In this document: one piece after another, positions 2,503-33,436 of the stretch | Layout of the letters: each line of letters opens with the position of its first letter | Numbering within the stretch: the stretch's first letter is position 1 | Assembly (NCBI GenBank): GCA_000165425.1 | Contig: CT868012.1 | Coordinates: 1-64,000, forward strand | Origin: Paramecium tetraurelia | Lineage: Eukaryota | Length of the DNA: 64,000 nucleotides | Direction: 5' to 3' | Translations under genes and position numbers: made by a program | The notes under the pieces: model-generated | What the model saw: only the letters and a program-made list of their open reading frames with translations | Database searches by the model: none | Told to the model about the DNA's origin: nothing

Positions 2503-2652
2503 NNNNNNNNNNNNNNNNNNNNNNNNNNNNNNNNNNNNNNNNNNNNNNNNNNNNNNNNNNNNNNNNNNNNNNNNNNNNNNNNNNNNNNNNNNNNNNNNNN
2601 NNNNNNNNNNNNNNNNNNNNNNNNNNNNNNNNNNNNNNNNNNNNNNNNNNNN
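2503..2652. other. Assembly gap (150 N)
   Basis: Run of N. Confidence 1.
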
Positions 2653-3446
2653 CAATCTTTGCTAGAAAATACAGTTGTAAAAGTGTTGGAATCAAAAATG
2701 AATTCCTAAATGAATCATTTAATGCTAAAAGAAGTTCCTACCAGTTATGAACCCTTGAATATTAATGCTGAAGACTCTAACGGAGTCAAGCTGATTAACT
2801 AAATTTTCTTGCAACATATTAGTTTTGATTGTAAAATCTCTTTGTAGAACTCAAGAACAAAATAGTTGTGCAAGTTTATTTAAGCAAGATTAGCCATTGA
2901 TAGAGCAAAGGAAACTTCAGAATAGAGTTGAATAATTGATGAGGAAGAAAGTTTTATAATATAGGAGTGCAATAATTCAAATCAAAAATTCTACCCAATT
3001 GGAGAGATTGGAACTTATACCATTTAGTAATTGGAAGTTTCCTCTTTCCGTTATTATTTTTATCTTTTCCAAGGATATTATAGTAATTGACTAACTAACC
3101 TTCTCCAAAAAAATTATAAACAAATGCTAGTAATAGACGCTATATCAGCAGTAATTTAAAATAATTTTGCAATAAAGTTAATAACCGTTAAGACCGACTT
3201 TATAAATAAAAAGAATAAATCAAATAAAATAATTTGGTTACAAAGAAACATTCTAACTAACTAATAGAACAAAGACCTATCTCATGGGCAACGCTACCTC
3301 AAAGATCCATAACAATGTGGGAGTTGATTATTTTATATTAGAATTTTCTCAAATATATATTCTTACAATTATATTATTTCTACTACTCAACTAAAGTTGC
3401 TTTATTAAAAAATTATAATAATAAATCCAAAATATATAGGAATGGT

Positions 3447-6400
3447 TCAATTCTATTTTTGTAAAAGCTATATTTCTCTTTTTAAATCATAATAGTATTC
3501 CAAAGCTTCTACTTATTTATACATATCTTCTAATGTTTATGCTGCATAAATTCATATCATCATATTTACCTTTGCTAACCTAATATTCTGAATTTTCAGG
3601 GTCTTTCTAAATCGCTTAATCGTAATATTCTAATGCTTCTTCATATCTATCCATTTTTTTTAAAGCTAGTGCTGCATAAAGGGATATAATATTATTTACC
3701 TTTTAAGATAAAATATTCGGATTTTTCAGGGTTTTTCAAAATAGCTGAATCATAATTTTCTAATGCTTCTTCATATCTATTCAGTTTTAATAGAGTACGT
3801 GCTTTATAAATTCATATATTTCTATTTTACCTTTAAAATAAAAATTTTCGGAAATTTCTGGGCTTTTCTAAATAGCTGAATCAAACTATTCTATCGCTTC
3901 TTCATATCTATCCATTTTTTCTAGAGTTCTGCCTGCAGAAATTTTCATAAAAATATTTACCTTTACCAAAATAATGTTCTGATTTTTCAGGGTTTTTCTA
4001 AATAGCCAAATCATGATATTCTAATGCTTCTTCATATCTATTCATATTTTCCAGAGTTAGTGCTGCCCAAATTCATATTATACTATCTACCTTTACAAAA
4101 ATGATATTCTGATTTTTCAGGGCTTTTCTAGATAGCAGAATCATAATATTCTAATGCTTCTTACTATCTATTCATCTTATCTAGAGTTAATCCTAAAAAA
4201 TATTCAAAATATGAGTACCTTTTCCAAAATGATATTCTGGATTTTCAGGGTTTTTTTAAATAGCCAAATCAAAATATATCAATGCTTCTTTGTATATATT
4301 CATTTCCTATAAAGCCATTGCTAGAAAGGATGAATTTTCTCTATACCTTTGTTATAAAAATATACAGACTCTTCAGGGTCTATCTAAATAGCTAAATCAA
4401 TATTTGATATTGCCTCTTAAAATCTTTCCATTTATATTAAAATTACTGCTAAAAAGTATAATTATACAATTTTACCTTTGAAATTATAAACCTCTGGCAA
4501 TTCAGAGTTTTTCTAAATAGCCATATCACAGCAATCTAATGCTTCTTATAATCTATTCATTTATAATAAAGTTGATGCTAAAATAAAATAAATGATCAAA
4601 TTACCTTTGTTAGTATATTATATGGCCATTTCAGGATTTCTCTAAATAGCTAAATCACAATAGTATAATGCTTCTTCAAATCTATTCATTTTTTGTAAAG
4701 TTTCAGCTTGAAAAGTATGAAGAGTTAATTGTACATTTGATGTAATAATTGTTCGAATTATTAGAGTCTTTTACAATAGCAAGATCACAATATTATAATG
4801 CCTCTTCATACCTATTCATTTTATTTAATGCCTCACCTACAAAATAGTTGTAATATTTACATTTGTTAGAATATATTAATGAATTTTATGGGTTATAATA
4901 AATAGCTTAGTCTAACGATTTTAATGCTTATTCAAATTGATTCATTTAAACTAAAGAAATTGCTACAAAAAAGATGAAATTAAAAAAGATACCTTTATTA
5001 TTATAACATTCAAAAATTTCAGGATTTCTCTAAATAGCCATATCCCAATATAATAAAGCTTCTTCTTATCTATTCATTTAATTTAAAGTTGATGCTAATA
5101 AGAATGTATGGCAAAATACCTTTTTAAAAATAGTTGTATGAAATTTAAGGGTTTATCTAAATAGCTAAATCACAATATTATAAAGCTTCTTCATTTCTAT
5201 TCATTTTTTATAATGCTACAGCTAAAGAAGTATATATGGTTAATAAACCTTTGTTACTAAAATAAAGTGATTCTTCAGGATTTTTCTATAGAGCTAAATC
5301 ACAAAAGTTATTTGCCTCTTCTACTCTATCCAATTGCATTAATATAATTGCTAAAAAGGATGACTATTCAAAATAAACCTTTGATATGATAATATTCTGC
5401 CATTTCAGGGTTTCTCTAAATAGCAAAATCGCTATATTCCAATGCTTCTTCAAATCTATTCATTTTTTATAAAGCATCAGCTACATGAGAATACTTGACT
5501 AATGCTACCTTTGTGATAAATATATTGCGAATTTTCAGGGTTTCTTTAAATTGCTAAATCATAATATTTTAAGGATTCTTCAAATCTACCCATCTTTTTT
5601 AATATTTCAGCTATAGAAATTAAATGGTATATTATACCCTTGTTGTTAAAAAAAAGTGGTTCTTCAGAATTTTTAAATATAGCTAAATCAAAAAATTTCA
5701 ATGCCTCTTCCAATCTATCCATTTCAGCTAACGTAATTGCTAAATAGTATGACTGCTAAAAATATACCTTTGCTATTATAATATTCTGGGTTATCAGGAT
5801 TTTTTTCAATAGCCTAGTCAAAATACTATGATGCTTCCTCAAATCTCTTCATTTTATATAAAACATCAGCTACATAAAATCTTGACTAATTCTACCTTTT
5901 ATATAAAAGTAGAATGATTCTTTCGGGTTTTTCTAAATAGCCTAATCACAATATTTTAATGCTTCTCCTAGTCTATTCATATGCGTTAAAGTAATTGCTA
6001 AAAAGGATGATTGTTCAGCCATACCTTTGTAATTGTAATAATCTGGTATTTCAGAATTTATCTAAATAGCTAAATCCTATGATTATAGTGCTTCCTCGAG
6101 TCTTCTCATCTCAACTAAAGCAAGGGCTAATAAAGATGAATAACCTAATATACCTTTGGTTAAATAATGTCCTGAATTTTACGGATCCTTAGAGATACAT
6201 AAATCGCAATGTTTTATTGCATCTCTAAATCTATCCATAAACAGTAAAGTTTAAGCTAAAGGAATGTATGTTCAAATACTTTTCTCATTATAATATTCTA
6301 GAATTTCAGGATTTATCTCAATTGCTAACTCGTAATATTTAATTGCTTGCTCAAACTATTATAATCTCCTTAAAGCAGAAGCTAAGAAGGTTGAATGTTC

Positions 6401-6780
6401 AACATACCTTTGTTAAAATAATATAGTGAATTTTTGGGATTACTCCAAATAGCTAAATCATAAAATTATAATGCTTCTTTATATTTATTATTATCAACTA
6501 GTTTATTTGCTTTTCGAAATATTCGTTTAAATATACCTTACATATTGTAATCTTAATGTTCTTGCCTTTAGATTGTGTCTTCTTATTTAAAATTGAAATA
6601 ATATATATCAATTGCTGCAAAATGTAAAATGTAACCATACCTTTCTAAAAATTATGTTCTTCGATTCCATCATTTAATAATCCATCTATTTTATATTTTT
6701 CTACTTAAATATCTGAACACAAACTTAATTACTTTTTCAAGTTTACTTATTTCTTCAATTCAACTTTTTGCGATTGATTA
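3447..6780 (-). CDS. Tetratricopeptide repeat protein, about 23-24 TPRs, one repeat per exon
   Basis: Each exon translates to a 34-aa unit such as ALALKKMDRYEEALEYYDQAIQKDPENSEYQVSK. Stop TGA at 3447-3449. The 5' end is not cleanly resolved (all three frames are blocked near 6760-6800). Confidence 0.92.
3542..6536 (-). repeat. Tandem array of [102-nt exon + 24-30-nt intron] units, period about 126-132 bp
   Basis: 23 consecutive exons of 102 nt from 3570-3671 to 6408-6509, all separated by phase-1 GT..AG introns. Confidence 0.95.
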
Positions 6781-9218: not shown

Positions 9219-9368
9219 NNNNNNNNNNNNNNNNNNNNNNNNNNNNNNNNNNNNNNNNNNNNNNNNNNNNNNNNNNNNNNNNNNNNNNNNNNNNNNNNNN
9301 NNNNNNNNNNNNNNNNNNNNNNNNNNNNNNNNNNNNNNNNNNNNNNNNNNNNNNNNNNNNNNNNNNNN
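9219..9368. other. Assembly gap (150 N)
   Basis: Run of N. About 28 bp is duplicated on the two flanks. Confidence 1.
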
Positions 9369-9443: not shown

Positions 9444-12400
9444 TCATGCTAATGTAAATTCTTCTGACCCTTCTGTTATAGCAATTTCTAATTTGGCAGC
9501 TAAGATTTATTCTTATGAATAAGGAGGCAGTTCTAATTAATTTGAACTATTATAAGTAAATCTATTTTATACCATGTGTGTCCTACAGGTAATAATTAAT
9601 CGGTCATATTGAAGTCACAATTAAACCTTCTAATTTGAATCTTTTTTTCTTAATTCTAAAATCCTCCTATTGGTGCCAACGGTAAGGCTAAAAATTAATT
9701 TTTCTTTACATGTTGCGAATTTTAAAAACTTTGCTAACAAATCTTAGCTGAAATTCTTCAATGTATTTTATAACCATATAATCACCTAATCTTGGGGAGC
9801 ATAATCAACGTATTAAAGATTGCTTATAAGATCGTCAACTAAGAATATATATATTTAACTATTACCATCTATGTAAGTTTAACCACATAACAATTATTCT
9901 AGTTAAATTGAATCAAAAATACTAATGTATTATCTCGGTATTACAGAATAAAACCCTTCTAAAAAGGCTTTCATCTAATTTTCAACGTTTTTTGCCATGA
10001 TTTAATCGCAATACATTTTTATGAATTCTTTTTTATTTTACTAAGTGACAAGTATATCTCCTCCTCCTTATTTAAGCTCTAGATCTTCAGGTATCCCATT
10101 ATTAACTATTGTATATAAGAAATACTATTCAAAATCAGCGTTACTCTTACTATAATAGAGAGAATAGAATTATTGATATAACCCTTCATCATGATATGAT
10201 ATATCAAATATAGATAATTTTTAACCTATAATGTGTTTAAAGAAAGAGATTGGAAACCGTCCAAATACCTTAACACCATTGGCGGTAGCTATTGCGAAAA
10301 TCATTCCAACGAATTTAAATTTTTTCAGATGATCAGGATCTTGATAGGATTCCCTATTAATTTAATAAAACAATTTATTTGAAGTAGGAACAAATAGTTT
10401 ATTATTTGGATCTACTATTTATTTCGTGAGTAATTACATCCACTCCTTCGATAAACCTCCCATATCGATACCTTATTCTCCCTCAAATTGTACAATTACT
10501 TGTCTTAATAATTAAGGATCACAACTATTAATCTTATTATAAGAATCCTCGAAAACATGGGTTCTTCTTACTGAAATTCGTTTGAATTATGTTTTTCTTA
10601 TCTTTAAATGGAAATATAATTTCTTATTTTCAAAATCAATAATTTTAGAATGATTTTTGAGGAAATAATCCACATAAAGGTTCTAAAATTCAAAATCATG
10701 TTAGTTTTGAGTAGGTTATTGACGTCTCACCATTTATCGATTCATTTAATTAAGTTTTTGTTCTATTATATAATTGATAAAAATTTTGCCCTTTTTACAG
10801 ATTTCTCTTGATAAACTTTCAAAGTCAACATCTCTAATTTCTAAGGAACCTGAAAAAGAATTGGAAACCTCCATAGAAGCTAATTTAGTTAAAAAAATCA
10901 ATTATTGAGAGTTATTTGGATTGAGAATTTAATTGGATATCACTAAGATACTGAATATGGGTGCTAAGGCTGGGTAATATTTTTGAACTTATTCCTTTGG
11001 TAAAATGGATATAACATTTTCAGTAAGCTTCATTAAGTTCTCAACTTTAATTGAGTTCAAAAATATCTCGCAACTATTTTATTCCTCTGCACCTTGCTTG
11101 TAAGCAATATGAAGCAGTTAAAATATTTTTTCTACTTCATTTATTTTGTCAAAGGATGAGTCACTTGTATTTCTATTTTCGAATTGAATCTAATAATATT
11201 CTGTAGTATTTCCAACTACATCTTCCATACGTTTAAAAAACAGATTTCTGTTCTAAGGAACACCCAAAAGTTTCGATATCAAATTTATATAATTGTTACT
11301 GAACTCTAAATCCTTCTCTTTTAGCATATTATTGAAAAGAGTGTTAATTTATTATTAACTTAATTCTACAATCGGTAGTTTTTCTTATTTACACATAAAT
11401 TATATAAGTAGATTCAACTATTCGCCTTAGAACAATTCTATTAAGCTTATCACATCTTTAAAATTATTGGCTGATAAATTGCATTTTTACAATTTTTATA
11501 AATCAATCATCAGCTCTAAGATTCTTTTTTTCACTAAATCTAAATTTTGAGTCATTTATTTTAATATCTGAATGAAATCATCAATCATTTAATTTGTAAT
11601 GTTCATTTTAGTCACTACACTTTTAAAAAAATTATTGACATTGTTTAAATTAGCCTCAACATCTTATCTATATAGAAGCTTTAACAAAAATTGAATGAAT
11701 TAATAGTCTAGTTTTCCTAAATTATTTAAAGTATATCTTCTGTTATTCAAGATACAAATGATATTTTAAAGTGTCCTATTCTAATTAATTTATTATAATT
11801 AGTTTTATTATTAAAATGGACGGATTAAAGATTAATAATCTCTGTCATCTTCATCTTCATCAAGGTCATTGTCATTAGGAAAAATATCAGCATAATCATT
11901 ATCAACATTTCTTTCAATATTCTCATTCATGAGCCTTACATTATTATTTTATAGATTCAATTAATCTCTTTACAAAATATGATTTTAAGGCAGGGGTCTG
12001 CCTAAAACTTGGATAATAGTATTATTTCTTTGTCTCATGGGATTTCTAAACCTAATGCCATCCTCTAATGATACTCTCTATTAATTATACTAACTTAAAA
12101 TAATCTGAGGGGAATCTTATATAAGAAATTCTCGAAGCTTTATCAAATGGTGTTAAAACTATTTTGGTAAGCGTAATTAATTGAAAATTATAGTGAATTA
12201 GAAATTAATCTCAATTTCATTATTTATGAAAGCATTCACAAAATTGTCTAAAACTTTATCATTTTCTAAATTTTTATCAGCTTCTTAATTTGCTTGCTGT
12301 CCAAACTCATCAATAAATTAATTTTCTTCATGTTCCAATTCTAATGCACTGATTTCTTGGGACTCCGAGCTTTCTTCGATTAAGTGTAATTGATCATTTG

Positions 12401-15400
12401 AAGTCAATTCTTCTTATCTCTAATTCTATTGTGAAAAATTTTCTTCTGTAAATAATGGCCATTATAAAATATATAATTTTGATAAACTTAGAGGATTTAG
12501 TTAGTCAATGAGTTATCTTTGGTCAAATGAGAATAATTAATTTTACATTTCTTATAACCTCATTTCACCAATAATTTTATTTCCTCTTTAACGATTATTA
12601 TTCATCATATTTTATTGATTCAAATTAGTTGGTGCTGGCACATTTTACTCTAAAAGAAAGCTTGTAGCCACATTATATAATAAATTCAAAATTGTAAGTA
12701 TAAAGTATATTTAATCTTTGTAGATAAGGTATTATTACAAATCGTACTTTTTGATTCCTTCAATGAACAAATTCACAAAATTAAAAGTGTCTTAAGGCTC
12801 ATTGATGTTTTTGATACAAATTTTGGCAACAGATTTTATTTACAATAGTATTCCTAAAAGTAAAGTTAAGTTCTTTAATTTGTCATCGCAGGTTTTTATT
12901 GATTTGCTTATCTCGCTATAAAGCTATTTTATAATCATTCTTCTTAATTCATTTGCAAAAGGAACTATTATATTATTAGACTTCTTGAATAGTATTATAT
13001 TATCCAAACATATATAAAATAAAAAATTATGGGTAGGTTGGATAAATCTTGTTATCAATGAAAGAAATGATATATTAGTAGGTAATTCTTATGATTCGTA
13101 TCCAATTTTATGTTTATATTATTGAAGGTATTCACTACAATTAATTCGTAAAAGCAGAGGTAATAGTATTGGAAATTTCTAAATAAGAAACAATAACACC
13201 TCTAATATAGCTTTCCAATCGAATTAATGTTGTGTATTCTCATCAAAATATGATAAAATTAGTTTTTAAACTAAAAATTTAATGAAAATCTATGTTTCTT
13301 TAGTAAGTTTAAAGTTGGCTTAAGATATTGAATCATCATTTTTATTGATGCTATTTAATGTATCTAATCCAATTCCATTTTTTAATATGTAACATTCTTC
13401 CTCTTCTGATTCTGTAAATAATATATTCATGACTTCGTTGACCTCCTCCTTAAAATATACATCATTTTGAAGTGCAAGCAAATTAGGATTGTTTTTTTTA
13501 ATTTTCCATTATTTATTTGCCTAAACATTGTATTATATTGGTTGTAAACAGATTGGATAGGCATTTTCATTCTTAAAATACATGCTATTTTTATTTTCAT
13601 ACGATTTTTTTATTTCTTCATTATTTTCTTAATCAAATAATATTTTTTTTATTTTTGCTTCAATTTAAGCTCTCAAAGTAGTTTTATCAGTAGTTATTCC
13701 TATTGCCAATCTACCAAATATAGATGTATGATTTAATTGTTTTCCTTATAATTTGTAAAGCAATTCTAACCCCCCAAATTCTGAAATAAATTGATTTATT
13801 GATTATTTGTTACTTAGAAAAGACTTTAATTAATACATCAATGCACCACTATACAGTAATCCCATCCTAAACTTGTAAATCAAGTATTTTTTTTATTCCG
13901 TTTAGTAGCAAGTTTATGACTTCTTGATTGTTTGTGATTAACTTAGTCATAATAGACAATGTAAAATTAATTGCTTAAATACCATTCTTGCATATTTCTG
14001 GTTATTGCAATATCTTTTCAAGTATCTTTATCATCTCAATTGCTATTAAGTCTTATTTTTCAGTAAAGTGTTTTTATTAACTAAGCAATTTTAAAATCAC
14101 CACAATGCTCCAAGGAGGAGGAGTGCTTGTATTCTCAAATTCAACCCCTTAGAAGTATAATTTTAAATTAAACTGTTCATAAGCTGTATGCAATAAATAC
14201 TTGAACAATTCCATCTGATCAAACTCTATTCCTGGGAAATTTAGGAAAAATACTTGAGATATTGGAAATCTTAAAATATTTGTTGTTACGTAGCTTTTTA
14301 GCGATTCTTTTTAAGCTTAAATCAATTCTAAATTTAAGTTTTCTTATTTTTGGCCTTATTGTATTCGTTATTCAAGTAAATTCCTATTCTCTTCTAAATA
14401 ATGAACCAAATCCTCTGGACTATTGAAGACAATATTCAAATTATATGCTTCTGAAATAAGTTGTCTTGAATAGCCCATTTCTTCTACTACATTTATTAAT
14501 TCAGGATTTTAACTCAAATTAGAATTTAAAAATTCAGGTTTCAATATTTAGCTTATCTTTTTAATTAAAAATTCAATGATTGTGATTCGGTTCTCTTGAT
14601 ATGAATCGATGGAAATTTAATAAAGAGATTATACATCCTAAATTATCTTCGGAAGTATGTGTGCTAAATCCTCTTTACTTCTTGGAAATTGATATAAATA
14701 TTTAAACACTAATTCAAAGTATTATTTTAACTCCTTTGTTATTATTGAGTTTTATTGATCAATTTCATTATAATTCTTTAGTGCATTTAATAAATTATTC
14801 TTAAATGAAGAGTTGATAAGAAGAATTTAAAGCTTTGTTTAGAAAGCTGGGGGAATTGTTTGTAATAATGTAGATATTAATAGGAGTAACTATTGAGTAG
14901 CATTAGGACAAGAAACTAAGTATGAACTTAGTTTATCAAAAAACCTACCTATAGGTTCTAAATATTGATTCATTTCTAACTTTATTAGATCCTAAAATAA
15001 ACCAATTAATATTCCAACATCAGAAAACTTACTTTAATGATTTTTCAATTATTCAGAATCTTTAGTGACTATCACCATTCCAAACATAGGACCTAATTTT
15101 TCTAATAATTTGCACTTTAAATCTTTAGTAGATGTTCTAATTTGTTCAATATTAATAGCAGAAAAATAGTGAAAAATTTCTGAAAAACGACCAACTATCG
15201 TTAAATTTTAAGGTGAAAATTAATCAAATAACTTTTTTTCATCTAAATATTGAAGTTAGGCATTGTCTAATGTTTATCCTAATTCTGCTTCCCATGATTC
15301 TATTATCTATAAGACTCTTTCTATTATTTTTTTAGGTTAAATCTAAAATAAATAATATAATTACTAATGAAGAATAAAAATTGGTGAAGCTAGGAATTCT

Positions 15401-17667
15401 AAACAATCCTGTTATTACATCTATAATTCCATCAGAACTCAAACGAATATTCATATTCAAAGTTAGAATGGCATTTTTTTTCTAAACAATCTTTTTAAAT
15501 TCTGTTTTACTTTCTTAATCGAATTTCAAATTTTTGATTCTGTTATTTAATTATTCTAATAATTATTAATAGATTTATTGAATAGGTTCAATTGATAACC
15601 CTACCATCCTATTATTTAAATGAATAATGTCTCTTATATTTTGGTTTAATCGATTTATCCATTACATTATGTTATTATCTTAAACAACTAAATTATAGTG
15701 TAATAGATTATGTAAGAATCTTATAGCTTAATTGCTAAAGTGATCAAATCCCTTTTCTTATAGACAAATATTTCGATAAAATTTTAATATATAAATTGTC
15801 TTTTTAAGGTCTAATTCTTCTACCTTTATATTTTGAATTATATCATTCAAGATTGCAGGTGTCTTGGATTCAATAATTTTTTCAGTCTAATCAGGAGCTG
15901 CTTAAGTTAAACAAGAAATAAAGTATAAAGCTTGTTACGCAGTGTTTGTAAGCTAGGCTTGTTAACTTAATTTGCCAGCAAAACACTTTAATATATCTGA
16001 GTTTAAAATTTTATTAGTTAGCAAAGTGTCAATATTTATTGTTTGATTAGTTTCAAAAATATTGTCTCTATCAAATTACATAAATTCATAATTTTAAGAT
16101 AGAATTTTAATACATTTTGTCATTATAGAATCTGCTTCATTATCACTAATTTGGACATAACCCTTTTGACTTGGCTTTTGCAAGTTTTATCCTTAATTTA
16201 CGTAATGACCAATTATGGATAAAAGATCATCGAAATTCTGACTTAGGTTTTCTTGATTTTTTAAGCACAACCAATTGTAGAGTGACAATGCATCTCCAAA
16301 TTATTCAGGAGGAAGCATTAACTTGTTATCTTAAATATTAAGGACTCTTATTAGCAATTTCATTATATCTGAAGAGAAAAATGCATTTCTAAATGAAATA
16401 AGATAAAAATTTATTAGGATGCAGGAAGTCAATCGACCATCCATTGCTAATTATTAACTCAGTATTGTTGAATTATATTTTAAAGGATAACCTTAAATTT
16501 ATTCATTTTCTTCAATATGGTTCATAGATAATACATCGGATATCAATTTTAATAATAACTCTTAATGCCTTTCACTTCCTGAAATATTAAAATGGTATTC
16601 TGGAATATTAATTACTTACTCTAATGACATAGGTTCTATGGTTTCCAGTCGGAATAAGTTATCATTATCAGTTTATTCTAACTTTCCAATTATTTAATTG
16701 TAACAACCCTTAAAAATGCTTTTTAGAATTCTTTATCCCAAAAATTTTAATGATTTTAAATGTAATCCTATTATAATTTTCCTAGTTTTTTTTGGATCTG
16801 TTTATAAACCTCGTTAAATTAGGATTCGATATTTTACTATTTCTATTAATGGAGAAAGAGGCTAATTTTGTAGATTTAATAGATTTCTAGACAATGCAAG
16901 AGCTGATGTTGAATTGTCGTCTGCTATTGATATTTTCTATAAAATCAATTAATAATTAATACTTTTTTTAATAATTACCCTTCCAACTTTTTCTAATGAA
17001 GAAAATTTTTTTACAATTCTTCATAACTTTCATCTAATTAGGTAGGTTCATAATATTCAATATCAAACTGCAGAGATTCAATTGGTTCCTGGCAGAGTTC
17101 TCGATACTTAGGATCGTCATAATAATAGTCAAGTAAATTGATTTTTTGAGCACCAAGAAAATTAATATGATTATAGAGGATTTTCCAAAAATATAAAATT
17201 CTTGGAAGATTCTCAATTTTTCTTCTTATCATATAATTAGAACCTGACAATAGAATCGAAGAAACTAAATCATAAATATGTAAGTCTTCTGTATATTCGA
17301 TTATCTTGAGTAAATTCTCTGAACTAGGAATTACTTTACTAAAATATATGAATACATTCCTATGCAAAAGGGATCTTGGTATTTTCTTGAAGAAATTCTA
17401 AAAGTTGGGAACAGTCATATTTAGGATTCGTTTATAGTTCTGTTACAACCCTGGCTAGGTGTTATTCAATCACCTCTAATAAGTAATTACCGTGCCTTGT
17501 AATGAACCAGAATTTTTTATCTTGTTACTAAAGAAGATTTCTTAGTTCTTCAATATTGAAGGAATTTATTAAGTTTCTAATCTAAGAATATATATATAGA
17601 TAACTTCTTCATCATCTAATTATGTTTCCTCTTACTAAGGGTCTCCACGTTATATATTTAACATCAT
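9444..17667 (-). CDS. Giant HECT E3 ubiquitin ligase (HUWE1/Tom1-like architecture, about 2700 aa), with apparent frameshifts
   Basis: HECT motifs FEGEQGIDMGGLSKEW (~10440-10490) and C-terminal LPVGHTC|SNQLELPPY...AITEGSEEFTLA*. Acidic tract near 11850. Introns at 9547-9572, 15343-15364 and 16937-16962. Frame change near 13860 and irregular 5' end. Confidence 0.88.
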
Positions 17668-30601: not shown

Positions 30602-32641
30602 ATGATGGAACTAATCAATTAGACGACTACACTCTCTTTAACAAAGTCTGTTACAAGTCTTCCCAGGCACAAATACCAACTGAAATCTAAATCCAAATCA
30701 TAAATGCAAACTTACGTTAATCCTAAGAAGAATGCTTGCAATCTACCAGAGATAGTATTGAATTAGAACTATCATTCATGTAGTAATCAGTTAATTGCAT
30801 CACATCATCAAGATACTCAAGACTTTAAAGTGGCAATCCGAAGACCAACTTAAGATTTTCTATAATTCCAATAGATAATTTTTGATTCTCCTGAAAGGAT
30901 TATAGATTGTGGATGAACTATTGTCTAATTGCAAAGAATCGCCAACAAAGATACTTTTAGAATTAAAATAAAGTAACATTCCCTTCCATTTAGATTATGT
31001 GCAAGAGAGATCGATTAAGGCAATCAAAGCAGATGATGTCAATATAAGGATGTTGCAGATGCCCTACCATTATCTATAGACATCATTCTTGCCTAATATG
31101 CAACAACAGTTGAAATCGTATGAATAGAATATGAGTGCTTCCTAAACTTTGACTTAAGAAATCAAGATCGTTGGAACTCATATTCTAATGATCAACTTAA
31201 TTATGCCTTCTGCAATTGATACAGATTAAAATGACATCATGTCATTAAATAGTACTCATCCAGTTTGGAAGAAATTAGATTGCATCACAACAAGAAAAGT
31301 ATAATTTCTAAATATTAGCAAGTCTTTAGGGGACTCTGAATAAATCAAACAATCTTTTTAATCATTTGTGTAATCAGTTATGGTTGGTCATGCCTTGGTA
31401 AACGATTGCAAGAACAAATCAAGTAGATGGAGTAAAATATTTTCAGTAAGTTTGAATTCTCTGTATTATTTCTTATCAAGCTCAGCTGCAGAAAAAGGAA
31501 TGAAAGATCATATGAGTTAGTTAAGAGCTGATACTGCACACTAAGCTATGAATTTCATCGAGTTGCCAGGAGTCAAACATTTAATTAATTTGGGATTACC
31601 CAAAATTGCTACAAACTTAAAATTTTATATATTGCCAGTTGTGTTACCACTCACAATTCAAGAAGCCAACAAATAAATTAAATTGGGAATTTATGATCAA
31701 ATCTCTACTCATTCAATTCAATATGTAAATCAAGAAATCCACAGAGATGATAAATTCTTATTTGTTAAAAATCAATCTAGAATTAGAATCAGATTATTGT
31801 ACAACCAACGTGTGGTGGAATAGGATAATATTTTTAGTTTCCTAAAATCATTCTTCGTCAAACAAAAACACAACATCTTTGAAGATAAGATTATCATTCA
31901 TATTCATGGGGGAGGTTTTATCTCATAATCATCATCAAGTCATCAATGCTACACCAGAGAATGGGCCATTAACTTAAATGTTCCCATCTTTTCTATTGAT
32001 TATAGTTTGGCTCCTTAATATCCTTACCCAATACCTTTGGATGATTGTTGGCAAGCGTATAATTGGATATTAAAATATTCTGAAACCATTTTTGGCATAA
32101 TTCCCAATAAGATCATTGTTACTGGTGATAGTGCTGGAGGTAATTTAGCTACTGCTTTGGTTGGATTAACGATAAAATATAAATTGTAAGTTCCAAATGG
32201 ATTGATTTTGAATTATCCTGCTGTTGATATTCGATTTTAGTACACACCTAGTTACTTGAATTCCATTAATGATAAAATTCTTAGTCATACTATTTTAGGA
32301 ATTTGTATTGAATCTTATTCAGCTCATCCAGATTCCTAACTTGGACTTGATTCATTTATGAGTCCTCTATTGTTGTCCTATGATATTCTGAAACATTTCC
32401 CACCCACAAGACTATTTTGTGGAAATAAAGATCCCTTGTATGATCAAGTTTTTAGACTAGCCTAAAGATTATAGTAATATTTTTCGACTATTATTTTAGA
32501 GTTGTAGACAGGGATGTAAAAATAACTGTATATGAAAATTTGTCCCATGGTTATCTAAATTTTAATACCATTAAAGGAATGTCAGAAATTAAATAATGTA
32601 TATTAGATAGTTAAGATGCCTTTTCTGAATTATTAAATTGA
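30602..32641 (+). CDS. Hormone-sensitive-lipase-like alpha/beta hydrolase
   Basis: IHIHGGGF (~31900), SIDYSLAPQYPYP, GDSAGGNL (~32124), DPLYD, HGY. Needs a 28-nt intron or a +1 correction near 30895-30936. Confidence 0.92.
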
Positions 32642-32658
32642 ATTCAATGTATTAAAAA

Positions 32659-33436
32659 TCATTCAATATTTTTACTCTCATTCTCAATCTTATCTTATGG
32701 AATATTATTCTATTATTCAACTTATTATTATTATTATTATTATTATTCTATTTTTTATTTCTTTTTTTCTCTACCCAATTCAATCATCTCTTATTTCTTT
32801 CTTTCTTTTTCCTCTTTTTATTTTTCTGGATCCAAGAATTTCTCTCCTTCTACTTGTTATTCTGTGAACCCTGCCCATTCTAAATTTTTATATAATGAAA
32901 TATTACATGCAAAATGATGAAATATTATTCCTGATGCTACACCGACATTTAAACTTGCAGTCTTTTGAGTGTATTAAGGAATATAAACAAAATGATCACA
33001 TAAAGCTTTATGTTCTGGAATCAATCCCGTACCCTATAATTAAGCTTTTTAAAATATAAACTTCATTTCCGAGAAAAAAGACTGTGTTACCCTTAAAAGG
33101 ATTTGTGATAATATTTTAAGAACCTTCACCAATTTCAACACCACAAACAAAAATATTGTTTAGTACAAAATACTCCTTTGCTTCTTTTAAATTATTAAAA
33201 AGGTGAAAATTCATTTAGTCATAAGTCCCATGATTACCAAAAAAGGAAAATCCTTCAGCAATTTAAAATTTCTTTTTCGTTTAGCCTTGTTTTCCAATCA
33301 TAAAGACTTTTGTTAAATTGAAGGCTGCAGCATTTCTAATAAAATAAAAAGGGAAGTAGTACCTGATGATAGTGCCTATATTTTTAGGCTTAGCTATATT
33401 GTGGAGAAGCAGATAACCTTCAAACTGCTATTGCAT
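32659..33436 (-). CDS. SpoU/TrmH-family RNA methyltransferase
   Basis: NIAKPKNIGTIIR|NAAAF, FFLGNE|GTGL, VYIPQY...SLNVGVASGI; Gln-rich tail. Confidence 0.92.

What the first reader, a model, noticed from the sequence alone, without database searches (positions are those of the whole stretch)
3542..6536. One-exon-one-TPR cassette array: 23 exact 102-nt exons flanked by same-phase introns
Seen: every exon from 3570-3671 to 6408-6509 is exactly 102 nt (34 codons, one TPR) and is bounded by phase-1 introns of 24-30 nt at the same repeat position. Any exon could therefore be added, lost, swapped or skipped without breaking frame. Scaffold residues (M.R.EEAL...D.AI.K.PE) are conserved, while residues around the splice junction vary. 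Known: Tetrahymena LRR genes have an analogous 90-nt symmetric-exon architecture linked to exon shuffling. Inference: a TPR-based modular diversification system, possibly a variable recognition or defence receptor family. This is the best candidate for an undescribed system in the window.
Basis: partly seen in the sequence, partly recalled or inferred. Interest (0 to 1): 0.8.

Follow-up and report, generated by a model that had tools for sequence, protein, structure and literature searches.

The report
Paramecium TPR gene, one repeat per exon
A Paramecium gene encodes a protein made almost wholly of 24 TPR repeats, 23 of them each on its own 102-base exon, a layout best explained by repeated tandem copying of an exon-plus-intron unit and not by a programmed diversity system.

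Summary
On the minus strand, under the ciliate code, 23 consecutive exons (6509-6408 down to 3671-3570) are each exactly 102 nt. All are entered in phase 1 and are separated by GT..AG introns of 24-30 nt. Spliced, they give an 815-codon frame with no internal TGA. The other two frames hold 17 and 57 TGA, and 0 of 2000 shuffles had none.

The protein is a pure TPR solenoid: Pfam TPR_1 E 7.7e-18 and no other domain. The intron splits the codon of TPR position 8. Introns resemble each other in the same pattern as their exons, including a three-unit block copy. The array therefore grew by tandem duplication of ~130-bp exon+intron units.

The repeats are old: 53-85% nt identity, and no closer to each other than to repeats of paralogs in other Paramecium species. 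The variable residues are the generic TPR concave-face positions.

There is no receptor or signalling domain, no gene cluster, no cassette reservoir and no sign of exon skipping. P. tetraurelia TPR genes with "TPR coding exons" and one germline IES per exon are already in print (PMC6771405). I rate this a new member of a known kind, of modest interest.

The parts
3447..6543 (-). Coding region of the TPR gene: ATG 6543-6541 to TGA 3449-3447. 25 coding exons and 24 introns; 2448 nt spliced, 815 aa.
   Evidence: No internal TGA, against 17 and 57 in the other frames; 0 of 2000 shuffles had none. The start codon is inferred: it is the only in-frame ATG upstream of the first TPR. RNA reads cover the depth bins from 3468-3601 up to 6416-6549.
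6537..6543 (-). Inferred first coding exon (7 nt: ATG, TAA read as Gln, and the first base of the split Ala codon).
   Evidence: The upstream alternative (exon 6686-6641 plus intron 6640-6615) has no in-frame ATG. Not confirmed by RNA.
3570..6509 (-). Array of 23 exons of exactly 102 nt, one TPR each. Exons as high-low coordinates: 6509-6408, 6381-6280, 6255-6154, 6126-6025, 5997-5896, 5869-5768, 5739-5638, 5610-5509, 5480-5379, 5350-5249, 5221-5120, 5094-4993, 4962-4861, 4836-4735, 4706-4605, 4577-4476, 4448-4347, 4320-4219, 4192-4091, 4062-3961, 3932-3831, 3801-3700, 3671-3570.
   Evidence: All are 102 nt and all start in phase 1. Profile scores are 43.7-62.4 bits each.
3542..6536 (-). The 24 phase-1 introns (GT..AG, 24-30 nt). 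As high-low coordinates: 6536-6510, 6407-6382, 6279-6256, 6153-6127, 6024-5998, 5895-5870, 5767-5740, 5637-5611, 5508-5481, 5378-5351, 5248-5222, 5119-5095, 4992-4963, 4860-4837, 4734-4707, 4604-4578, 4475-4449, 4346-4321, 4218-4193, 4090-4063, 3960-3933, 3830-3802, 3699-3672, 3569-3542. Each splits the codon of TPR position 8 after its first base.
   Evidence: For 10 of 24, the best-matching other intron scores above the 99th percentile of shuffled interiors. 10 of 24 have a length divisible by three, and 9 of those 10 lack an in-frame TGA.
3447..3541 (-). Last exon: a truncated 24th TPR, a short tail and the stop codon.
   Evidence: (partial hit at 3492-3542, profile positions 1-17).
5120..5895 (-). 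Three-unit block duplication. Introns 7-9 with exons 8-10 (5895-5509) are copied as introns 10-12 with exons 11-13 (5508-5120).
   Evidence: TRF period 389, 2.0 copies, 78% matches, at 5140-5899; exon pairs 8/11 at 76%, 9/12 at 77%, 10/13 at 73%; introns 7 and 10, 8 and 11, and 9 and 12 are each other's best partners.
3542..4218 (-). Youngest part of the array: exons 21-25 with introns 20-25.
   Evidence: 74-85% nt identity among exons 21-25; introns 21-25 are each other's best partners; periods 130 and 261 at 3540-4305, 76-77% matches; the closest pair, E21/E22, has dS 0.22 and dN 0.14.

Best explanation
This is an intact, weakly transcribed macronuclear gene of a Paramecium aurelia-complex species. 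It encodes an 815-residue soluble protein that is a TPR solenoid of 23 full repeats and one partial repeat, with no other domain. It most likely acts as a protein-protein interaction scaffold. Each repeat offers its own concave-face residues on a conserved helical frame.

The one-exon-one-repeat layout is a product of history, not a device. An ancestral TPR unit carried a tiny phase-1 intron inside the codon of TPR position 8 (Gly/Ala). The ~130-bp unit of 102-nt exon plus intron was then copied in tandem many times, singly and in blocks of two and three units, by unequal recombination or replication slippage. The exon length stays at exactly 102 nt because a TPR tolerates no length change. 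The phase stays the same because every intron is a copy of the same intron.

Shown: the anatomy, the intact frame, TPR identity, homology among the introns, the block duplications, the age of the copies, and transcription from the right strand. Inferred: the start codon, actual splicing of this gene's own introns, the scaffold function, and the duplication mechanism.
For: Exon and intron model: 23 of 23 exons at 102 nt, all phase 1, introns 24-30 nt.

Intact frame only after splicing: no internal TGA in 815 codons, against 17 and 57 in the other frames; 0 of 2000 shuffles had none.

TPR identity: TPR_1 at 63.9 bits against a cut-off of 27.8, in 3 stretches of a 171-aa read-through piece.

Introns copied along with exons: 10 of 24 introns have a best partner above the 99th percentile of shuffles. 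Partner pairs 7/10, 8/11 and 9/12 match exon pairs 8/11, 9/12 and 10/13. TRF finds periods of 130, 261 and 389.

Selection: scaffold sites have pN/pS 0.41, against 1.02 at concave-face sites. The closest exon pairs have dN/dS 0.29-0.85.

Variability: the highest-entropy positions in this array (12, 6, 9, 5, 22, 24, 2, 13, 34) largely match the positions that vary or contact ligand in TPRs at large (2, 5, 6, 9, 12, 13, 33, 34; PMC1261162).

The same junction across the family: 25 of 25 complete repeats taken from eight annotated P. tetraurelia and P. octaurelia proteins start with Ala and end with Lys. Two junctions in the old P. tetraurelia models carry a 9-residue insert starting with Gly, and a third carries a 7-residue one. 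That is what an unspliced 27-nt phase-1 GT.. intron would give.

RNA: 58 and 68 reads were laid from two oligo-dT runs. Between 3468 and 6549, every bin with depth has it in the first-mate-on-plus column only, which in most stranded libraries means a minus-strand RNA.

Literature: P. tetraurelia TPR genes have "TPR coding exons" (PMC6771405, passages read). IES copies multiplied by expansion of TPR repeats are reported in PMC3464196 (passage read).
Against: Splicing of this gene's own 24 introns was not seen. RNA depth was 0-5 and no small skip reached the reporting threshold.

Some of the laid reads come from paralogs. Depth peaks at 3736-3869 and 5344-5477 coincide with word-depth spikes in the DNA run, and loose ends there differ from the window.

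No ortholog above 49% identity was found in annotated proteins of other Paramecium species, although a neighbouring gene has 86-90% orthologs. The gene may therefore turn over faster than an ordinary scaffold gene would.

pN/pS of about 1 at concave sites fits relaxed or diversifying selection as well as old functional divergence.

9 of 24 introns are divisible by three and lack a stop. This runs against the genome-wide trend in Paramecium (PMC5014332).

The partner and function of the protein are unknown.
Confidence: 0.8

Rival explanations
1. A TPR cassette diversification system. Symmetric 102-nt exons are added, lost, swapped or skipped at an appreciable rate, in evolution or somatically, to generate variable recognition surfaces in a receptor-like or defence-like family.
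For: All exons are phase 1-1 and of equal length, so any change in exon number keeps the frame. Concave-face sites show pN/pS 1.02, against 0.41 at scaffold sites. No ortholog above 49% identity turned up in annotated Paramecium proteins, while a neighbouring gene has 86-90% orthologs. Analogous exon arrays in Tetrahymena LRR genes and in Ectocarpus NB-ARC-TPR genes have been read in this way (PMC6564038; PMC3341825). TPR genes are the most IES-dense genes of P. tetraurelia and are prone to IES retention at stressful temperatures (PMC6771405).
Against: No signalling, effector, secretion or membrane part: the whole product is TPR. Exons are 53-85% identical and none is recent. They are no closer to each other (mean 47% aa) than to repeats of other genes (49%). 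The introns are too small to hold spare or inactivated exons, and no other such gene lies in the 64 kb. The variable sites are those that vary in every TPR family. Skipping an exon would need removal of about 150-160 nt, far outside the ~25-nt introns Paramecium uses. [quoted passage not shown] The two longer joints in the RNA reads (4399/5058 and 4263/4784) are not at exon borders, lack GT..AG ends and carry extra letters, as expected of paralog reads.
Confidence: 0.07
2. In-frame isoform generation through retention rather than skipping. Stop-free introns with lengths divisible by three, or the germline IESs expected in each TPR exon, are sometimes kept. This would insert 8-10 residues at TPR position 8 without triggering nonsense-mediated decay, and so modulate the scaffold.
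For: 10 of 24 introns have lengths divisible by three, and 9 of those 10 have no in-frame TGA. In Paramecium generally, such introns are depleted and enriched in stops (PMC5014332). Read-through keeps the frame and begins with Gly, the canonical residue at position 8. Temperature-dependent IES retention hits TPR genes in P. tetraurelia (PMC6771405).
Against: 10 of 24 does not differ significantly from one third. With TGA as the only stop, most 27-nt AT-rich introns lack one by chance. A low-expression gene is also under weak selection on this trait. No retained-intron read was reported, though depth was too low to tell. An insert inside helix A would probably damage the repeat (inference). [quoted passage not shown]
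Confidence: 0.07
3. A decaying or non-functional tandem repeat: a dead gene or satellite-like array that only looks like a gene.
For: Very low RNA depth (0-5). No ortholog found. No known partner.
Against: No internal TGA in 815 codons, against 16.6 expected from shuffles. 24 of 24 introns keep GT..AG. Scaffold residues are conserved at 19-23 of 23 repeats, with pN/pS 0.41 at these sites. Reads in the gene lie on the expected strand.
Confidence: 0.03

Closest known systems
Paramecium tetraurelia TPR-motif genes, e.g. PTET.51.1.G1500001 (Vitali et al. 2019, PMC6771405), and proteins GSPATT00011674001, GSPATT00009802001 and GSPATT00039102001 (P0003, P0017, P0020)
   Same: Same genus and the same TPR subtype; P0003 scores 510 bits in 13 stretches against the profile of the window's repeats. 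Same Lys|Ala repeat junction. Inserts beginning with Gly at that junction, as expected from an unspliced 27-nt intron at the same place. The paper's figure legend speaks of "TPR coding exons".
   Different: This is a different gene, with at most 49% identity to any annotated Paramecium protein found. It lacks the ~360-aa non-TPR N-terminal part of P0003. Its repeats are more diverged: mean 47% aa within the gene, against 64% in P0003. The defining germline trait of that family, one IES at the 5' end of each TPR exon, cannot be seen in macronuclear DNA. The papers I read do not state the exact 102-nt, phase-1 regularity.
Tetrahymena group II/III LRR genes with arrays of exactly 90-bp exons (Xiong et al. 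2019, PMC6564038)
   Same: A ciliate gene family. A solenoid repeat domain is encoded by runs of exons of one exact length, with introns all in one phase. The arrays grew by tandem exon expansion.
   Different: LRR, not TPR. 90 bp and phase 2, against 102 nt and phase 1. Tetrahymena group III shows recent clonal expansions detectable at the nucleotide level; here the closest exon pair is 85% identical. The paper states that P. tetraurelia LRR genes lack such a pattern, and it does not describe TPR exon arrays.
Ectocarpus NB-ARC-TPR candidate receptors (Zambounis et al. 2012, PMC3341825)
   Same: One TPR per exon in a repetitive exon array. Exon gain and loss are proposed to vary the TPR domain.
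   Different: There the exons encode 42 aa (a TPR plus a linker) and are fused to an NB-ARC domain. The genes sit in clusters together with pseudogenes, and inactivated exons lie in long introns. Here there is no NB-ARC, no linker, no cluster in the 64 kb, and the introns are 24-30 nt.
O-GlcNAc transferase / SPINDLY TPR domain (the automatic UniRef name of P0003)
   Same: A long uninterrupted run of TPR_1-type repeats.
   Different: No glycosyltransferase domain. The window's protein ends within a 24th TPR. The name reflects TPR similarity only.

Membership tests
TPR repeat proteins (Pfam TPR_1 PF00515 / TPR_2 PF07719) | Score above Pfam's curated cut-off | tested here: met
   TPR_1 at 63.9 bits against 27.8, and TPR_2 at 55.1 against 27, on a 171-aa read-through piece. 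TPR_1 at 43.8 bits on a second piece.
TPR repeat proteins (Pfam TPR_1 PF00515 / TPR_2 PF07719) | 34-residue unit in tandem, with small or hydrophobic residues at positions 8, 11, 20, 24, 27 and Pro at 32 (the position list is recalled; the numbering was checked against PMC1261162) | tested here: met
   23 units of exactly 34 residues. Position 8 is Ala in 18 and Gly in 2 of 23; position 11 is Leu in 23; position 20 is Ala in 22; position 24 is Cys, Tyr or Phe in 17; position 27 is Ala in 22; position 32 is Pro in 19 of 23.
Paramecium IES-dense TPR gene family (PMC6771405) | Sequence relationship to P. tetraurelia TPR proteins, with the same repeat junction | tested here: met
   P0003 at E 2.0e-152 in 13 stretches. 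25 of 25 complete repeats from eight Paramecium proteins begin with Ala and end with Lys.
Paramecium IES-dense TPR gene family (PMC6771405) | One IES near the 5' end of nearly every TPR-coding exon in the germline | not testable with these tools
   The window is IES-free (all exons are exactly 102 nt) and no micronuclear sequence was available. One DNA contig leaves the window 8 nt inside exon 16; this was not resolved.
Tetrahymena-type symmetric repeat-exon arrays (PMC6564038) | Runs of at least 3 exons of one exact length, with introns all in one phase | tested here: met
   23 exons of 102 nt, all in phase 1. The length, phase and domain differ from the Tetrahymena case.
Tetrahymena-type symmetric repeat-exon arrays (PMC6564038) | Recent clonal exon expansions detectable at the nucleotide level; LRR domain | tested here: not met
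   Maximum exon-exon identity is 85% and the mean at any lag is 65-68%. The domain is TPR.
Exon-shuffling candidate immune receptors (Ectocarpus NB-ARC-TPR, PMC3341825) | Fusion of the repeat array to an NB-ARC or other signalling domain | tested here: not met
   The product is TPR from residue 3 to the C-terminus. Pfam found only TPR-type families.
Exon-shuffling candidate immune receptors (Ectocarpus NB-ARC-TPR, PMC3341825) | Gene clusters with pseudogenes, and inactivated spare exons inside introns | tested here: not met
   No other hit of the repeat profile in 64 kb. The introns are 24-30 nt. Neighbours are HECT, hydrolase and RCC1 genes.
Exon-shuffling candidate immune receptors (Ectocarpus NB-ARC-TPR, PMC3341825) | Diversifying selection on ligand-facing residues | tested here: inconclusive
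   pN/pS is 1.02 at six concave sites, but this compares old paralogous repeats whose median pS is 0.46. No ortholog was available for a proper test.
O-GlcNAc transferase / SPINDLY | C-terminal glycosyltransferase catalytic domain | tested here: not met
   The frame stops at 3449-3447 inside the 24th TPR.

The most novel reading that the evidence does not exclude
The germline unit in Paramecium TPR genes may be a triple module: a 102-nt exon, a tiny phase-1 intron and one IES. The cell might exploit it in two ways. Imprecise or regulated IES excision at each new macronucleus would vary the gene at the DNA level. Retention of stop-free introns with lengths divisible by three, invisible to nonsense-mediated decay, would vary it at the RNA level. 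Together these would give clone-specific variants of very long TPR scaffolds, a somatic diversity mechanism built on repeat-exon symmetry.
Probability: 0.06. Interest if true: 0.75.

Novelty: new member of a known kind. Interest (0 to 1): 0.3.

Why it matters
The gene is a very clean example of how a solenoid protein grows. One exon-plus-intron module was copied 23 times, and both the exon length and the intron phase were preserved exactly.

It extends the ciliate repeat-exon pattern, described for Tetrahymena LRR genes, to Paramecium TPR genes, with another length and phase. My seven searches on this question found no paper that states the 102-nt, phase-1 rule. They did find that P. tetraurelia TPR genes have "TPR coding exons" with periodic IESs.

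For annotation, such arrays are a known trap. Old P. tetraurelia gene models read some of these stop-free introns through as short in-frame inserts.

The locus would matter more if the family proved to vary in repeat number between strains or between macronuclei.

Tried and rejected
1. Whole genome. None is held for this window, so no census of 102-nt exon runs could be made.

2. Sequencing runs. No RNA holder is listed. Ten coded runs hold 0.35-0.47 of the sampled words. That is close to the ~0.48 I estimate for a fully spliced transcript. They are only guessed to be RNA, however, and the one I laid (X3) put contigs on just 7 of 30 bins. I draw nothing from the shares.

3. Read laying. Depth was too low to see the 24-30-nt splices, exon skipping or intron retention. 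The joints 4399/5058 and 4263/4784 were rejected as skipping. They are not at exon borders, have no GT..AG ends, and have extra letters between the two sides.

4. Metagenome scan with a 20-nt family motif. It returned 9 loci with GC 0.35-0.49. None has a Paramecium-like array; one bacterial-looking locus has 5 intron-less TPRs. No paralog DNA was obtained.

5. PDB profile search with one repeat. Only weak designer PPR and helical-repeat hits (E 6e-8 or worse); uninformative.

6. Earlier findings of this scan. Nothing on record.

7. An upstream start (exon 6686-6641 plus intron 6640-6615). Rejected because it has no in-frame ATG.

8. Profile search with a 33-column alignment.

9. Structure prediction. 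Left out, because the true spliced protein is not a contiguous translation of the window. The TPR fold rests on Pfam scores only.

10. Supplements of the cited papers were not opened. Those of PMC6771405 may list exon and IES coordinates of the P. tetraurelia TPR genes.
Full report
**What is in the sequence.** The window is AT-rich: GC is 0.22-0.35 across it and 0.24-0.26 around the finding. The region 3540-6540 is a diverged tandem repeat of about 130 bp. Tandem Repeats Finder reports period 130 over 3566-5602 (15.8 copies, 66% matches), period 261 over 3540-4302 (77%) and period 389 over 5140-5899 (78%).

The coding strand is the minus strand. Under table 6 (TAA and TAG read as Gln), no frame crosses the array unspliced; the longest open stretch there is 171 codons.

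I placed GT..AG introns at the 24 candidate donors. This gives 23 consecutive exons of exactly 102 nt, all entered in phase 1, and introns of 24-30 nt. The spliced frame runs from ATG 6543-6541 to TGA 3449-3447. It has 815 codons with no internal TGA, against 17 and 57 in the other two frames. Shuffled sequence averaged 16.6 in-frame TGA, and 0 of 2000 shuffles had none. The frame holds 53 in-frame TAA/TAG codons and 6 CAA codons, so the ciliate code is in use.

**Organism and surroundings.** Tiny GTA..AG introns and the code point to Paramecium. A neighbouring alpha/beta-hydrolase gene is 90% identical to a P. pentaurelia protein and 86% identical to P. sonneborni and P. octaurelia proteins. 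The window therefore comes from an aurelia-complex species whose proteins are not in the database. No whole genome is held for it.

Neighbouring genes are ordinary: a giant HECT ligase, the hydrolase, an RCC1-repeat protein and a coiled-coil protein. A profile of the 23 repeats found nothing else in the 64 kb; all 24 of 24 hits lie in this gene.

**What the protein is.** Read-through pieces score well above Pfam's cut-offs for TPR_1 and TPR_2 (63.9 and 55.1 bits). Each exon encodes one 34-residue TPR.

In canonical TPR numbering, the intron falls after the first base of the codon for position 8. That residue is Ala in 18 and Gly in 2 of 23 repeats. It is preceded by an invariant Lys at position 7.

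The product starts Met-Gln and goes straight into TPR 1. It ends inside a 24th, truncated TPR. There is no other domain, no signal peptide and no hydrophobic stretch longer than 5 residues.

The start codon is inferred. It is the only in-frame ATG upstream of the first repeat, and it leaves a 7-nt first coding exon. An alternative upstream exon has no in-frame ATG.

**How the array arose.** The introns are homologous to one another. For 10 of 24, the best-matching other intron scores above the 99th percentile of shuffled interiors; 16 of 24 reach that percentile. The pattern of intron relatedness mirrors that of the exons:

- Introns 7/10, 8/11 and 9/12 are mutual best partners, and exons 8/11, 9/12 and 10/13 are 76, 77 and 73% identical. 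This is the three-unit block that TRF sees as period 389.
- Exons 21-25 and introns 21-25 form the youngest cluster, at 74-85% exon identity.

The unit of duplication was therefore exon plus intron. Single, double and triple units were all copied. The uniform length and phase follow from common descent plus the fixed 34-residue length of a TPR.

**Age and selection.** The copies are old. Exon-exon identity is 53-85%, with a mean of 65-68% at every lag. Median pS between repeats is 0.46, and the closest pair (E21/E22) has dS 0.22 and dN 0.14.

At the protein level, the window's repeats are on average 47% identical to each other. They are 49% identical to 25 complete repeats taken from eight P. 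tetraurelia and P. octaurelia proteins. For 14 of 23, the best foreign match is at least as good as the best match within the gene. I see no homogenisation within the gene and no recent cassette traffic.

Scaffold sites are constrained (pN/pS 0.41). The six concave-face sites are not (1.02).

The most variable positions are 12, 6, 9, 5, 22, 24, 2, 13 and 34. These largely match the positions that vary most in 6,887 TPRs of all kinds (2, 5, 9, 12, 13, 33, 34) and those that contact ligand in Hop (2, 5, 6, 9, 12, 13) (PMC1261162, passages read).

**Family.** The single-repeat profile finds 18,441 cluster representatives at E up to 0.001 and 323 at E up to 1e-30. The best by far is a P. tetraurelia protein, P0003, at 510 bits in 13 stretches. 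Two further P. tetraurelia proteins stand among the top ten, together with bacterial and archaeal TPR proteins.

A wider word-seeded search listed 120 proteins. Eleven of them carry Paramecium names (tetraurelia, octaurelia, bursaria), and none exceeds 49% identity to the query piece. So I found no ortholog, although a neighbouring gene has 86-90% orthologs. That search scores only the candidates sharing the most words, so this is moderate evidence at best.

In the Paramecium relatives, complete repeats begin with Ala and end with Lys in 25 of 25 cases. Three junctions in the old P. tetraurelia models carry an insert that starts with Gly, two of 9 residues and one of 7. That is what an unspliced 27-nt phase-1 intron beginning GT gives in the window itself. 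The intron position thus seems shared across the family. This is an inference from proteins, not from their DNA.

**RNA.** No run is on record as RNA for this stretch. I laid two raw oligo-dT RNA runs of the same species label. They gave 58 and 68 reads, at depth 0-5. Between 3468 and 6549, every bin with depth has it in the first-mate-on-plus column only, which in most stranded libraries means a minus-strand transcript. No read lies in the bins between 6550 and 7200. This fits the gene model and weak expression.

No splice, skip or retention event reached the reporting threshold, so these questions remain untested. Part of the signal comes from paralogs. Two depth peaks coincide with 31-mer depth spikes in a DNA run, and the loose ends there differ from the window.

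One loose end is informative. Five reads in X23 leave the window behind 5474. Read by eye on the minus strand, their consensus runs from the ...Asn-Asn-Lys end of one TPR straight into Ala-Ile-Thr-Leu of the next. That is a Lys|Ala junction without an intron, in the mRNA of a paralog (table 7; my reading).

**Comparison with what is known.** Xiong et al. [quoted passage not shown] They note that P. tetraurelia LRR genes lack such a pattern, and they do not treat TPR exon arrays (PMC6564038, passages read).

Zambounis et al. 2012 describe Ectocarpus NB-ARC-TPR genes with one 42-aa exon per TPR. These genes are clustered, sit with pseudogenes and carry inactivated exons. The authors read them as candidate receptors (PMC3341825, passages read).

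Vitali et al. 2019 report that P. tetraurelia TPR genes are the most IES-dense genes of that genome, at up to 10 IES per kb. [quoted passage not shown] Arnaiz et al. 2012 attribute IESs present in 3-6 copies to expansion of TPR or WD40 repeats (PMC3464196, passage read).

The repeat-per-exon structure of Paramecium TPR genes, and its growth by tandem expansion, are therefore already visible in print. The exact 102-nt, phase-1 rule was not stated in anything my searches returned.

**Verdict.** The finding is real, and the architecture is striking. The best explanation is ordinary: a member of a known, fast-evolving Paramecium TPR family, built by tandem duplication of an exon-intron module and encoding a long interaction scaffold.

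The diversification or defence reading lacks every feature that supports it in the Ectocarpus and Tetrahymena cases, except exon symmetry itself. Exon skipping is also mechanistically unlikely in an organism that splices only ~25-nt introns and shows little alternative splicing (PMC8997360, passage read).

Three things stay open: the function and partner of the protein, the germline IES pattern, and whether repeat number varies between strains. A side observation may deserve a look. Nine of 24 introns are divisible by three and free of stops, against the Paramecium-wide trend (PMC5014332).

Noticed in passing
window 3542-6536 (-), the 24 array introns: 10 of 24 introns have a length divisible by three, and 9 of those 10 have no in-frame TGA. 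Their retention would add 8-10 in-frame residues and escape nonsense-mediated decay. Paramecium as a whole depletes such introns and enriches them in stops (PMC5014332). Old P. tetraurelia models of paralogs read such introns through.
   Followed up: partly
window 4828 (8 nt inside the 5' end of exon 16); also 3228/3325 and 6874: Contigs of a DNA run (X15) match the window up to these points and then run on for 255 nt or more of unlike sequence (table 7). They could be IES-retaining copies, strain differences or paralogs. The 4828 site recalls the reported IES position at the 5' end of TPR exons, but its junction does not look like the usual IES end (consensus recalled from memory).
   Followed up: no
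window 2503-2652 and 9219-9368: Two runs of 150 N. The second is flanked on both sides by a near-identical stretch of about 29 nt, so it seems to lie inside a direct repeat.
   Followed up: no
window 9615-17247 (-): Several long open frames, the last with a HECT domain (E 2.3e-53). Together they look like one giant HECT ubiquitin ligase gene, interrupted by small introns.
   Followed up: partly
window 30762-32867 (+): A hormone-sensitive-lipase-like alpha/beta-hydrolase gene. It is 90% identical to a P. pentaurelia protein and 86% to P. sonneborni and P. octaurelia proteins. No close P. tetraurelia counterpart appeared in the length class searched.
   Followed up: partly
window 3736-3869 and 5344-5477: 31-mer depth in a DNA run rises from about 44 to 198 and 773 at these points. 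A few conserved words of the repeat, in the part encoding the Met-Asn-Arg-Phe-Glu-Glu-Ala stretch, are therefore shared by many paralogs in that genome. RNA reads at these peaks are partly from paralogs.
   Followed up: partly
window 3285-3440 (+), just downstream of the TPR gene: A short plus-strand frame opens with Met-Gly-Asn-Ala-Thr-Ser-Lys, which looks like an N-myristoylation start (recalled motif). A few RNA reads of the opposite orientation lie at 3200-3467.
   Followed up: no
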